IMG/VR virus record: IMGVR_UViG_2537562194_000011
Length of the DNA: 5,320 nucleotides
Direction: 5' to 3' (one strand)
Origin: a virus
Lineage: Duplodnaviria; Heunggongvirae; Uroviricota; Caudoviricetes
Below the pieces are notes generated by a model. That model was not told the DNA's origin. It did not search any database and was given only the letters and a program-made list of their open reading frames with translations. Shown piece by piece: positions 1,678 to 3,258 of the stretch; the first letter of the stretch is position 1; every line of letters begins with the position of its first letter. Position numbers and translations under genes: made by a program.

Positions 1678-1914
1678 CTATTTCATTCCGCCAATATTTT
1701 CCCACCTCCCGTCAGCACGCAGAATTTGCAGCGGTCTTACCACGCACTGTATCTGCTTTTTATCCGCATCCAGTATCACCACCTGCGTGATTACCCTGTC
1801 CTGCTCCGGAATAATACCATTCTCATCGGACTCCAGGATGTCTGCCGGCCCCAGTCGCAGTTGTGCTGTAAGTAACCCCCCGTGTTCACGGTCATCATGC
1901 TTCCGTGCCCGCAC
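1678..1914 (-). CDS. Hypothetical protein, paralogous to the C-terminal domain of the upstream tail fibre; start codon uncertain
   Basis: Open frame of 78 codons from GTG at 1912..1914 to TAG at 1678..1680; the frame is actually open from the fibre stop at 1948..1950. Its product aligns by eye with the fibre C-terminal domain at roughly 40 percent identity (shared LGP..I.E...NG..P..D..IT and R.LQ....DG.W). No ATG and no RBS in frame; a strong AGGAGA (1952..1957) plus ATG (1944..1946) sits one frame off. Confidence 0.4.
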   Translation of the reverse strand: MRARKHDDREHGGLLTAQLRLGPADILESDENGIIPEQDRVITQVVILDADKKQIQCVVRPLQILRADGRWENIGGMK

Positions 1915-1947
1915 AGACGCTGCTATAAGTTTTTTTAGATGTTCATG

Positions 1948-3258
1948 TCATTCTCCTGTTCTGCCTGTATCACTGCCCACTTCATCCAGCCCCTTAACAT
2001 CCTGCCACGGCCCGTCACCAAACCTGACCTGCAAATGCCGAAACAGCCCCTGAACCTGTGTGGCATCTTTGGGGTCAAGAAAGGTCAGTCCGGTGATGAG
2101 CGCACCATCTGTATCCGGGAACCAGCCATTGCTGTTTGTCTCAATAATGTTTCCCGGCCCCAGACGGAACCGTATTTGCGTCTCCCCCGGGTCGCCCTTC
2201 GGCCCCTGAGGTCCGGTTGCCCCCACCGGGCCAGCCGCACCTGTTTCTCCTTTCGGTCCCTGTGGGCCTGCCGGGCCTGCCGCACCGGTATCTCCCTTTG
2301 GACCCTGAGGACCTGCATTTCCCGTCAGACCGGTCTCTCCCCGCTCTCCCCTGTCACCTTTGGCCCCTGCGGGACTGCCGGACCAGCATCACCTGCGGTC
2401 CCCGTTCGCCGGTTGCCCCGACAGGGCCGGTGTCACCGCGCTCTCCCTTATCACCCTTCGGCCCCTGAGGACCCGCGGGCCCCTGTTCCCCCTTTGGCCC
2501 GGGAGGTCCACCACGGTGGGGATTCGGTTTACGGCCTCTTCCGCCGCTATCCTGCTTTGTTCCGCTGACTGTGCGCTTTCTGCTGACTCCCGGGCTTTTT
2601 CTGTTGCGGTCGTTGCATCCCTGGCTGCATTACCGGCTGCACTTTCTGCCGTCTTTCTTGACAATTCAGCTTCTGCTGCACTTTGTGATGACTCACTGGC
2701 TTTTTGAGCGGCCGCAGAAGCTGAGGACGAGGACGCATCCTCTGACTGCTTTGCAGCGGCTGCACTTTCTGCCGCCTGCCGGGCTGACTCCGATGCCTCC
2801 CCTGCTGAAGTGTCAGCATTTGCAGCGCTCTCTTCTGCCTGACTGGCTGATATGCCGGCATTCCTCGCTGACGTCTCCGCCTCTCCGGCATTCTTCTTCG
2901 CCTCCTCAGCGTGACGCGCCACCTCTTCCACCATCAGTTCAAAACGGCGCAGTGCCTCCGGCCGGACGTCACCCTCCGTCATGGCACCGAGAAAATCATT
3001 CAGCGTACCGGGTCGGGAATCTTCATACACGGTGATGGTCCCGGCATGTGACGGCGGGAATCCTTCCACCAACAGAATGACGCTGTACTGACCGTACTCA
3101 ACGTCCATGCTGTAACGACCGGCTTCATCCGGATTTTCAGAGGCCACCGCGTTCACCACCACCGTGGCGCTGTTACGTCTGGCTTTCAGTTGAATGGTGC
3201 AGTTCTCTACCGGTTTTCCTGTGCCGTCTTTCAGCACACCTGAAATCTTTACTGCCAT
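1948..3258 (-). pseudogene. stf: Side tail fibre protein, lambda Stf family with collagen-like Gly-X-Y tract; reading frame interrupted three times as sequenced
   Basis: N-terminal ORF 2389..3264 (likely true start ATG 3256..3258 giving MAVKISGVLKDGTGKPV.NCTIQLKARRNS) matches the conserved Stf N-terminal domain from memory, followed by an Ala/Ser/Glu-rich low-complexity segment (about 2530..2919). Gly-X-Y periodicity then runs in a different frame over 2393..2509, a third frame over 2376..2393, and back in the original frame from 2367 to 2179, continuing into the C-terminal domain ORF 1948..2226 (stop TGA 1948..1950). Restoring one base at each of three sites gives a single ~437-codon ORF. 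As sequenced the N-terminal ORF ends at TGA 2389..2391. Confidence 0.75.
2179..2509 (-). repeat. Collagen-like Gly-X-Y triplet repeat tract (about 37 triplets) inside the tail-fibre gene
   Basis: Hand translation of the minus strand: 13 perfect triplets [39 protein letters not shown] over 2393..2509; GDA GPA over 2376..2393; 21 triplets [63 protein letters not shown] over 2179..2367. GC-rich and internally repetitive at nucleotide level. Confidence 0.75.

What the first reader, a model, noticed from the sequence alone, without database searches (positions are those of the whole stretch)
1678..1957. Start-less ORF downstream of the fibre gene is a paralogue of the fibre C-terminal domain and sits next to an out-of-frame strong RBS plus ATG
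The fibre stop TGA (1948..1950) lies between a near-consensus Shine-Dalgarno AGGAGA (minus strand, 1952..1957) and an ATG (1944..1946) 5 nt downstream. That is a classic coupled-translation junction, yet the ATG frame stops after three codons (MNI*). The 78-codon frame open from 1947 to 1678 has no plausible start. Its product (..LTAQLRLGPADILESDENGIIPEQDRVITQVVILDADKKQIQCVVRPLQILRADGRWENIGGMK) is recognisably related to the fibre's own C-terminal domain (..[63 protein letters not shown]). A one-base correction between 1944 and 1915 would give a ~90-residue protein initiated at the good RBS. A tandem, separately translated copy of a receptor-binding-type domain is not the usual lambda tfa chaperone arrangement. 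It could be an alternative distal tip, a tip-capping or assembly factor, or a duplicated remnant.
Basis: partly seen in the sequence, partly recalled or inferred. Interest (0 to 1): 0.5.

Follow-up and report, generated by a model that had tools for sequence, protein, structure and literature searches.

The report
Frameshifted copy of known fibre-knob gene
The "start-less ORF" is a copy, broken by single-base gaps in a draft contig, of a well-annotated 89-residue gene that follows the collagen-like tail-fibre gene in EHEC prophages and Shiga-toxin phages; it is ordinary, although what the small protein does is still unknown.

Summary
AGGAGA, the fibre stop TGA, an ATG that gives MNI*, and an open downstream frame are all at the stated coordinates. 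The downstream frame is a true paralogue of the fibre C-terminal domain: both match PF06820, and they share 39% identity (E 9e-13).

It is not new. The window is the whole contig AEZV02000045.1 of a draft E. coli assembly. Against the closest complete genome it carries seven 1-nt indels between 1903 and 3444: one in lom, three in the fibre and three in the small gene. No complete genome shares them.

The intact gene with the same SD-stop-ATG junction is present in 85 of 87 copies. It accompanies the fibre domain in the same number of phage records (296 each). It is under purifying selection and has a 60%-identical orthologue in Salmonella prophages.

Published work lists it among the non-essential late genes of Sp5 (ORF68). 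A GenBank record calls it "alternate tail fiber tip". Trace peptides occur in phi24B virions.

Most likely it is a separately translated accessory fibre-knob protein, corrupted here by sequence errors.

The parts
1678..1946 (-). Small PfC-only gene (orthologue of WP_001023476.1, Sp5 ORF68 and phi24B gp59). Here it is broken by three 1-nt indels, so the ATG frame stops after MNI.
   Evidence: Undoing the indels gives a product identical to L001:4355-4624 (89 aa, PF06820 E 1e-36).
1952..1957 (-). Shine-Dalgarno AGGAGA of the small gene, lying inside the last codons of the fibre gene.
   Evidence: The junction AGGAGAATGACATGAA is conserved in 85 of 87 copies. The Salmonella orthologue has AGGAGG-N6-ATG.
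1944..1946 (-). Authentic ATG start codon of the small gene.
1948..1950 (-). TGA stop of the fibre gene, one nt upstream of the small-gene ATG. In this contig it is also the only stop between the fibre frame and the PfC' frame.
1938..1939 (-). 1-nt deletion (A) relative to the intact gene, in codon 3. This is what creates MNI*.
1924..1924 (-). 1-nt insertion (A) relative to the intact gene.
1901..1903 (-). 1-nt deletion in GGAAAG (A3 to A2). After it the reading returns to the PfC' frame, which is now in phase with the fibre.
1678..1866 (-). PfC' domain (PF06820) of the small protein, residues 28-89 of the intact protein.
   Evidence: pN/pS is 0.20 in this frame against about 1.4 in the other two frames.
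1948..3258 (-). EPclA-type collagen-like side tail-fibre gene (PfN, coiled coil, collagen, PfC). Broken by 1-nt deletions at about 2510, 2397 and 2362, with a premature stop at 2391..2389.
   Evidence: PMC3368898.
1981..2172 (-). PfC domain of the fibre itself, the paralogue of the small protein.
1634..1667 (-). Hairpin plus U-run (readable on both strands) right after the small gene. This is the likely terminator of the late tail operon, before the nleC cargo.
   Evidence: -24 kcal/mol, z -4.45, 0 of 200 shuffles as good. The same element follows the gene in L003 and L087. The consensus scan missed it.

Best explanation
Identity (shown). The window is a short contig of a draft STEC assembly. 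On the minus strand it carries the end of a lambdoid prophage: J C-terminus, lom, an EPclA-type collagen-like side tail fibre, a small PfC-only gene, a terminator, and the effector gene nleC. The finding is that small gene. In intact prophages it is a conserved 89-codon gene. Its AGGAGA lies in the last codons of the fibre gene and its ATG sits one nucleotide after the fibre's TGA.

Why it looks start-less here (inferred, about 85%). In this contig three 1-nt indels within 37 nt wreck its 5' end. Four more indels hit the fibre and lom. These are most likely base-calling or assembly errors in a segment present about 11 times per genome, not biology.

How the intact gene works (part shown, part inferred). 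The small protein is translated on its own from the late tail transcript, probably coupled to termination of the fibre. It has a short basic N-terminal helix, a variable linker and a PfC knob. That knob is the domain that trimerises on its own in the fibre and is proposed to nucleate refolding of its collagen helix.

Function (about 35%). My best guess is a homotrimeric accessory knob made in small amounts. It would associate loosely with the distal end of the side or lateral fibre as a cap or adaptor. It is dispensable on laboratory hosts.
For: Source and lesions:
- The 78-aa ORF of the window occurs on only one contig read in the index, AEZV02000045.1 of GCA_000194355.2, which is exactly 5320 bp.
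- Against 95NR1 there are 7 indels and 2 substitutions in 1903..3444, and no difference in 1..1900.
- None of the 704 complete genomes carrying the module matches better than 99.4%, so none shares the indels.
- The nleC flank is single-copy and 100% identical to complete O111 genomes. The fibre plus small-gene segment has a median of 11 copies per genome.

Identity:
- RefSeq annotates WP_001023476.1 at this position.
- It matches PF06820 and phrog_576.

Separate translation and function as a protein:
- The junction and the 89-aa ORF are intact in 85 of 87 copies.
- pN/pS is 0.20 in the PfC' part and 0.5 in the first 27 codons in its own frame. Other frames give about 1.4 over the PfC' part; over the first 27 codons they give 0.48 and 1.31, so that stretch does not discriminate between frames.
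- The Salmonella orthologue has its own SD and ATG behind a non-collagen PfC fibre.
- Small protein against small protein is 60% identical, against 38% for the two fibre PfC domains.
- The fibre PfC and the small gene each occur in 296 phage records with near-identical name breakdowns.
- No sigma-70-like promoter was found on this strand, and a terminator follows directly.

Literature:
- PfC trimerises alone (PMC3368898).
- Two peptides specific to the small protein occur in purified phi24B virions, 3 PSMs each against 2267 for the fibre.
Against: That the indels are errors is inferred from their pattern. No reads were available, and prophage modules do decay.

The J segment is also multi-copy yet has no indels. 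Only some of the indels lie in homopolymer runs.

The proposed tip association is weak on several counts:
- The protein is only a trace component in the phi24B proteome.
- It is not mentioned in the text of the cryo-EM preprint.
- Sp5 ORF68 is listed among the non-essential late genes.
- The AlphaFold2 model is of low confidence (pLDDT 57.8).
- No interaction was tested here.
Confidence: 0.75

Rival explanations
1. The indels are real. The lom, fibre and small-gene module of this prophage is a decaying pseudogene cluster, and the start-less ORF is a true remnant.
For: Defective EPclA genes with frame loss are documented in EDL933 and Sakai (PMC3368898, Table 2). The Citrobacter rodentium copy is truly decayed: A5 instead of A7, an internal deletion, and a fibre remnant with stops. 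Many truncated or fused variants exist in databases.
Against: There are seven indels against two substitutions in 1.5 kb, and three indels lie within 37 nt with no substitution between them. The variant is seen in one draft contig only. The closest complete genomes have all three genes intact.
Confidence: 0.15
2. The PfC' sequence is expressed as an alternative distal tip fused to the fibre by recoding. This is the +1 frameshift claimed in GenBank KU977420, or in this contig readthrough of the single in-frame TGA. It would give two fibre isoforms.
For: The GenBank note on atfT says 'Slippery sequence and pseudoknot predicted ... +1 frameshift'. The small-gene frame is open 46 codons upstream of the ATG in 78 of 83 loci. 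Some fibre alleles carry a T7 run, GGGTTTTTTTC. The authors of the phi24B proteome considered fusions and labelled the row 'Spike or just gp59?'. In the window the two frames are in phase.
Against: The overlap shows no coding constraint in the small-gene frame: pN/pS is 1.48 and there are two stop-creating variants.

The T7 run is allele-specific and absent from this window (QGLFRH allele). A shift there would replace half of the PfC with 32 junk residues.

GAA-TGA-C cannot re-pair in +1, and the SD spacing is unlike prfB (my own knowledge).

Mondal et al. found no frameshift signal. No junction peptide appears in the stored proteome file. A strong SD and ATG are conserved, including in Salmonella where the stop position differs.

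The in-phase TGA of the window is a by-product of the net -1 indels, and the fibre upstream is itself broken.
Confidence: 0.05
3. The small gene has no protein function. It is a silent duplicated cassette kept next to the fibre as a recombination reservoir for new fibre tips, or simply a remnant of an old tip exchange.
For: Mondal et al. proposed this. Hybrids exist: P0127 joins the small N-terminus and the start of PfC' to the fibre PfC C-terminal half, and P0058 joins collagen directly to PfC'. The two share a 27-nt patch at 78% identity (D4).
Against: Purifying selection acts in its own frame. The SD and ATG are conserved. The 60%-identical Salmonella orthologue is more conserved than the fibre tips themselves. 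Peptides were detected in virion preparations. The hybrids are single or very small clusters, typical of decay or assembly chimeras. Both copies are in direct orientation with no inverted repeats or invertase.
Confidence: 0.1
4. It is the functional analogue of lambda Tfa: a chaperone needed to fold or trimerise the fibre tip, encoded in the tfa position.
For: It holds the same gene position directly after the stf-type gene (PfN domain). It is strictly linked to the PfC-bearing fibre. It evolves slowly.
Against: Pfam returned only PF06820 for it, with no other family. Recombinant EPclA and isolated PfC trimerise and refold without it (PMC3368898). Sp5 ORF68 is listed among the non-essential genes whereas the fibre ORF67 is essential.
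Confidence: 0.1

Closest known systems
WP_001023476.1, Sp5 ORF68, phi24B gp59, 'atfT' of AU6Stx1 (PF06820-only 89-aa protein, phrog_576)
   Same: After undoing three indels the product is identical to WP_001023476.1. It has the same position after the fibre, the same SD-TGA-C-ATG junction and the same terminator.
   Different: In this contig the 5' end is frameshifted, so no start serves the PfC' frame.
PfC domain of EPclA/EPclB collagen-like prophage tail fibres (Ghosh et al. 2012, PMC3368898)
   Same: Same Pfam domain at 39% identity. That domain is a beta-rich trimerisation knob that is proposed to nucleate refolding of the collagen helix.
   Different: The small protein has no collagen or PfN part. 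It carries a 27-residue N-terminal helix and linker instead, and lacks the acidic tail [12 protein letters not shown].
Lambda Tfa and Mu/P2 tail-fibre assembly proteins
   Same: The gene lies directly downstream of the side-tail-fibre gene, at the end of the late operon.
   Different: No sequence relationship was found. Tfa proteins are not paralogues of the fibre tip. EPclA folds without the small protein.
T2/T6/S16 gp38-type tip adhesins
   Same: This is an analogy only: a small protein encoded after the fibre gene that sits on the fibre tip (my own knowledge).
   Different: There is no homology, no evidence of binding here, and the protein is present only at trace level in virions.
Invertible alternative fibre tips (Mu Gin S/S', P1 Cin)
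   Same: A second copy of a fibre C-terminal module sits next to the fibre gene.
   Different: Both copies are in the same orientation. There are no flanking inverted repeats and no invertase, and the small gene has its own SD and ATG.

Membership tests
PF06820-only small tail-fibre protein (phrog_576, WP_001023476 family) | Full-length PF06820 domain above Pfam's gathering score | tested here: met
   125.4 bits against a cut-off of 25, model positions 1-64.
PF06820-only small tail-fibre protein (phrog_576, WP_001023476 family) | Stand-alone ORF of about 89 codons with an ATG served by an SD at the fibre stop | tested here: not met
   As the contig stands, the ATG frame stops after 3 codons. 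The feature is met once the three indels are undone, and in 85 of 87 relatives.
PF06820-only small tail-fibre protein (phrog_576, WP_001023476 family) | Lies directly downstream of a fibre gene that itself ends in PfC | tested here: met
   Also true in Salmonella and across phage records.
PF06820-only small tail-fibre protein (phrog_576, WP_001023476 family) | N-terminal MNILKKLMQRLC segment | tested here: inconclusive
   The codons are present but split over three frames by the indels.
Tail-fibre assembly chaperones (lambda Tfa type) | Sequence membership of the Tfa family | tested here: not met
   Pfam gives only PF06820 at E <= 0.01. PHROGs gives only 'tail fiber protein' families.
Tail-fibre assembly chaperones (lambda Tfa type) | Required for fibre trimerisation or assembly | not testable with these tools
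   The literature argues against it. rEPclA and PfC trimerise alone, and ORF68 is listed among the non-essential late genes.
Programmed recoding fusion (+1 frameshift or readthrough) | Conserved shift site and coding constraint in the overlap | tested here: not met
   pN/pS is 1.48 with 2 stop-creating variants in the overlap. The T7 run is allele-specific and absent from the window.
Programmed recoding fusion (+1 frameshift or readthrough) | Fusion polypeptide detected | tested here: inconclusive
   The stored part of the phi24B proteome holds only two peptides, and both are shared by the free and fused forms. No junction or N-terminal peptide was found, and the file is truncated.
DNA-inversion alternative tips (Gin/Cin type) | Inverted repeats, an invertase, and oppositely oriented cassettes | tested here: not met
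   Both PfC copies are on the same strand. No flanking inverted repeat was found, and there is no recombinase ORF in the window or in L001.

The most novel reading that the evidence does not exclude
The PfC-only protein is a so-far uncharacterised kind of fibre accessory. It arose by duplication of the fibre's own trimerisation knob, is translated separately, and docks on or caps the distal end of the collagen-like side or lateral fibres of EHEC prophages and Stx phages. There it would tune adsorption or host range on natural O-antigen-bearing hosts. Its basic N-terminus (MNILKKLMQR) facing the acidic fibre tail ([12 protein letters not shown]) would be the docking contact.
Probability: 0.3. 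Interest if true: 0.45.

Novelty: already known. Interest (0 to 1): 0.22.

Why it matters
For genome scanning, the lesson is practical. A cluster of 1-nt indels in a short contig made of multi-copy prophage DNA can turn an ordinary annotated gene into an apparently start-less ORF beside an orphan RBS and ATG.

Biologically, the gene family is widespread. It occurs in about 700 of 5426 complete E. coli genomes, at a median of 11 copies each, and in 296 phage records that include 434, lambda_2B8, 933W-like phages and phi24B. It is still without a demonstrated function.

The comparative results add three points that argue for a real protein function rather than a silent cassette. The gene is under purifying selection. 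It is older than the E. coli/Salmonella prophage split. It is more conserved than the fibre tip it accompanies. These results make a defined set of experiments worthwhile for people who study Stx-phage adsorption. They are not surprising enough to rank highly.

Tried and rejected
- Structure: AlphaFold2 of the small protein with a 21-sequence alignment gave pLDDT 57.8 and pTM 0.38. It shows helix 3-12 and then six strands, but is too weak to interpret.
- Fold search: Foldseek against the PDB gave nothing at E <= 0.001. The best phage-related hit was the Mu fibre/chaperone complex 5yvq_A at E 0.39, which is not significant.
- Sequence and profile searches of the PDB found no relative.
- NCBIfam has no model for the small protein.
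- The genome-contig scan gave only two loci: E. albertii, and a 725-bp 'Xanthomonas pisi' contig that is probably contamination.
- The exhaustive representative search found only 56 hits, almost all fragments of the same protein, so there is no wider family to learn from.
- Literature searches for the assembly accession, for 'atfT' or 'alternate tail fiber tip', and for a frameshift paper found nothing.
- The consensus terminator scan missed the hairpin after the gene. Folding showed it.
- A prfB-like +1 frameshift was considered and rejected: GAA-UGA-C cannot re-pair, and the SD overlaps the P-site codon.
- A lipoprotein signal in MNILKKLMQRLCGCG was considered and rejected. It is too short and too polar for a signal peptide.
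- A DNA-inversion system was considered and rejected.
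Full report
**What is in the window.**
On the minus strand the 5320 bases carry, in order:
- the C-terminal part of the tail-tip protein J (5320..3989);
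- lom (3921..3319);
- a collagen-like side tail-fibre gene (3258..1948);
- the ORF of the finding (1946..1678);
- a strong hairpin with a U-run (1667..1634; -24 kcal/mol, z -4.45);
- the type III effector gene nleC (1245..259).

A look-up of the 78-aa mechanical ORF shows that the window is the whole contig AEZV02000045.1 of the draft assembly GCA_000194355.2. That contig was the only one read that carries the ORF.

**Checking the observation.**
- AGGAGA at 1957..1952;
- the fibre stop TGA at 1950..1948;
- ATG at 1946..1944, five nt after the SD, with a frame reading MNI*;
- the A7 run at 1936..1930.

The frame 1947..1678 is open for 89 sense codons. The '78 codons' are the ORF from a GTG at 1914, which has no SD.

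The similarity to the fibre C-terminus is real. Both pieces match Pfam PF06820 (Phage_fiber_C) over the whole model, at E 1.1e-36 and 7.6e-36. The intact proteins align at 39% identity over 62 residues, E 9e-13.

**Why there is no start.**
The closest complete genomes are O111 strains 95NR1 and 95JB1 and O111:H- 11128. They annotate an 89-aa 'phage tail fiber C-terminal domain-containing protein' here, WP_001023476.1. It starts two bases after the end of the fibre gene.

I aligned the contig to 95NR1:
- There are 45 substitutions, nearly all in mosaic patches of J.
- There are seven 1-nt indels, all between 1903 and 3444: one in lom (G6 to G5 at 3444), three in the collagen part of the fibre (about 2510, 2397 and 2362), and three in the first 44 nt of the small gene.
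- The three in the small gene are an A missing after ATGAACAT, an extra A at 1924, and A3 to A2 at 1901-1903.
- Positions 1..1900 are identical to the reference.

Undoing the three small-gene indels gives WP_001023476.1 exactly. There are three lesions with a net loss of one base, and the A7 run is not involved.

**Are the indels real?**
I could not see reads, so this is inference. The evidence for error is as follows:
- There are seven indels against two substitutions in 1.5 kb.
- Three indels lie within 37 nt with no substitution among them.
- None of the 704 complete genomes that carry the module matches better than 99.4%.
- This stretch is present at a median of 11 copies per genome. The error-free nleC flank is single-copy and 100% identical to complete genomes.

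Together these point to base-calling or consensus errors in a collapsed-repeat contig; I put this at about 85%.

Real decay remains possible. Defective EPclA genes are known (PMC3368898), and the Citrobacter rodentium copy is truly degraded. J is also multi-copy but has no indels.

**What the intact gene is.**
The fibre is an EPclA-type protein: PfN, coiled coil, collagen and PfC (Ghosh et al. 2012, PMC3368898). That study showed that PfC is a beta-rich domain that trimerises on its own, and its authors propose that it nucleates refolding of the collagen helix.

The small protein has three parts:
- a short N-terminal segment, MNILKKLMQRLC, predicted helical in a low-confidence model;
- a variable linker;
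- a PfC domain.

It belongs to phrog_576, 'tail fiber protein'.

Its distribution is as follows:
- Across 87 copies from IMG/VR contigs and complete genomes, 85 have the intact 89-codon ORF. Apart from three single-copy variants, the junction is the invariant AGGAGAATGAC|ATG.
- In the phage collection the fibre PfC and the small gene each occur in 296 records with near-identical breakdowns by name. These include phage 434, lambda_2B8 and the short-tailed Stx phages.
- The family is very narrow. There are 56 representatives among 1.84 billion proteins, almost all fragments of the same protein.

**Is it a working protein?**
Polymorphism among 63 distinct intact alleles gives pN/pS 0.20 for the PfC' part in its own frame, against about 1.4 in the other frames. 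The first 27 codons give 0.51, with mostly synonymous changes in codons 2-7.

A Salmonella enterica lambdoid prophage has a 79-aa orthologue:
- It has its own AGGAGG-N6-ATG.
- It overlaps the end of a fibre that has a PfC domain but no collagen.
- It is again followed by a hairpin with a T-run.

The two small proteins are 60% identical. The two fibre PfC domains are 38% identical, and small against fibre is 31-39%. The duplication is therefore older than the split of these prophage lineages, and the small protein evolves more slowly than the fibre tip. This argues against a decaying remnant. It also fits poorly with a receptor-binding tip under diversifying selection.

**Recoding and other rivals.**
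GenBank KU977420 labels the gene 'alternate tail fiber tip' and claims a +1 frameshift. Its CDS simply starts at an upstream ATG in the +1 frame.

The evidence bearing on recoding is mostly negative:
- The small-gene frame is open for 46 codons upstream in most copies. It shows no coding constraint there, with pN/pS 1.48 and two stop-creating variants.
- The T7 run that could slip is allele-specific and absent from this window.
- Mondal et al. 2016 found no frameshift signal. They list the orthologue, Sp5 ORF68, among the non-essential late genes, whereas the fibre ORF67 is essential. They suggested a recombination 'reservoir' (PMC5155283).
- Hybrids between the two paralogues exist but are rare: P0127, P0058 and P0156.
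- There is no invertase and no flanking inverted repeat.
- A Tfa-like chaperone role is unlikely, because EPclA and PfC trimerise without it.

**Experimental hint from the literature.**
The proteome supplement of a 2026 phi24B cryo-EM preprint (doi 10.64898/2026.04.10.717836) lists two peptides that belong only to the small protein, which is gp59 there. They are ADGTWENIGGMK and VITQVVILDADKK, with 3 PSMs each, against 2267 PSMs for the fibre gp61.

The authors had added hypothetical gp61-gp59 fusions to their search database and labelled the row 'Spike or just gp59?'.

In one low-molecular-weight gel slice the fusion row has one more PSM than gp61. This hints at the free 10-kDa form. No junction peptide is present in the stored, truncated file.

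So the polypeptide is made and co-purifies with virions at trace level. Nothing more can be said from these data.

**Structure.**
- AlphaFold2 gave a low-confidence model (pLDDT 57.8).
- Foldseek and PDB sequence or profile searches found nothing significant.
- The preprint's authors also report no confident AlphaFold model for the gp61 C-terminal domain.

**Verdict.**

The thing itself is an already annotated and already discussed gene. Its odd appearance here is most likely a sequence-quality artefact of a draft contig.

The best-supported mechanism for the intact gene is separate, coupled translation of a small PfC knob protein from the late tail transcript. The step from there to 'accessory cap on the fibre tip' is inference, which I put at about 35%.

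Interest is low. The residual interest is that the function of a very widespread EHEC and Stx-phage gene remains open.

Noticed in passing
window 3444 (lom, 3921..3319, minus strand): A G6 run is G5 compared with complete genomes. This frameshifts the Ail/Lom gene, so its true C-terminus appears as a separate 40-aa ORF at 3445..3323.
   Followed up: partly
window 2362-2510 (fibre gene): Three 1-nt deletions (about 2510, 2397, 2362) sum to -3, so the fibre returns to its original frame after 2362. A stop at 2391..2389 in the shifted stretch truncates it at 291 codons.
   Followed up: partly
window 1947-1950: Because the small-gene indels sum to -1, the PfC' frame in this contig is in phase with the fibre and separated from it by the single TGA. 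This is a by-product of the indels, not a conserved feature. In intact copies the offset is +1.
   Followed up: yes
window 259-1245 (minus strand): An intact nleC gene (type III effector zinc protease with the HEIIH motif). It is single-copy per genome and 100% identical to several complete O111 genomes. It sits as cargo behind the terminator of the tail operon.
   Followed up: partly
window 4742-5303 (J gene): Forty-two of the 45 substitutions against 95NR1 fall in four tight patches of J (5237-5303, 5018-5075, 4916-4981, 4742-4811). This looks like mosaic recombination among paralogous J genes. The best match for this segment is a different strain (98.9%).
   Followed up: no
L006 (NZ_JPLE01000138.1, 725 bp): A contig labelled Xanthomonas pisi DSM 18956 carries the E. 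coli small PfC gene at 92% protein identity. This is most likely contamination of that assembly.
   Followed up: no
P0146 / L092 3505-5202 (metagenome SRR17035117): A 565-aa protein has four tandem PfC-like half-domains (VVVLDAD...GILRVRQADGTW..IPA.KG) ahead of a collagen stretch, and it passes the PF06820 cut-off. PfC-like modules can therefore be strung along a fibre.
   Followed up: partly
P0127, P0058, P0156 (database proteins): These are rare natural hybrids. P0127 joins the small-protein N-terminus to the fibre PfC C-terminal half. P0058 joins collagen directly to PfC'. P0156 is a frameshift allele that reads from the fibre PfC into the small gene. Each is a single sequence or a very small cluster.
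   Followed up: partly
L091 5479-6237 (Citrobacter rodentium ICC168): A decayed copy of the module lies next to nleG. The fibre remnant has stops, the small gene has A5 instead of the A7 run, and there is a 4-codon deletion. The A7 run near the start may be a slippage hot spot.
   Followed up: partly
L087 2888-6240 (Salmonella enterica prophage): A 100-aa ORF and a 452-aa GDSL-lipase gene sit between J and the fibre gene. The fibre has PfN, Phage_fiber_2 and PfC but no collagen. A SopA-like effector gene lies downstream.
   Followed up: no
L003 4895-4910 (AU6Stx1) and other 'FF' alleles: The fibre PfC allele RVQGFFQH is encoded with a T7 run (GGGTTTTTTTC). This could slip during transcription or translation. 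The window's allele (QVQGLFRH) lacks it.
   Followed up: partly
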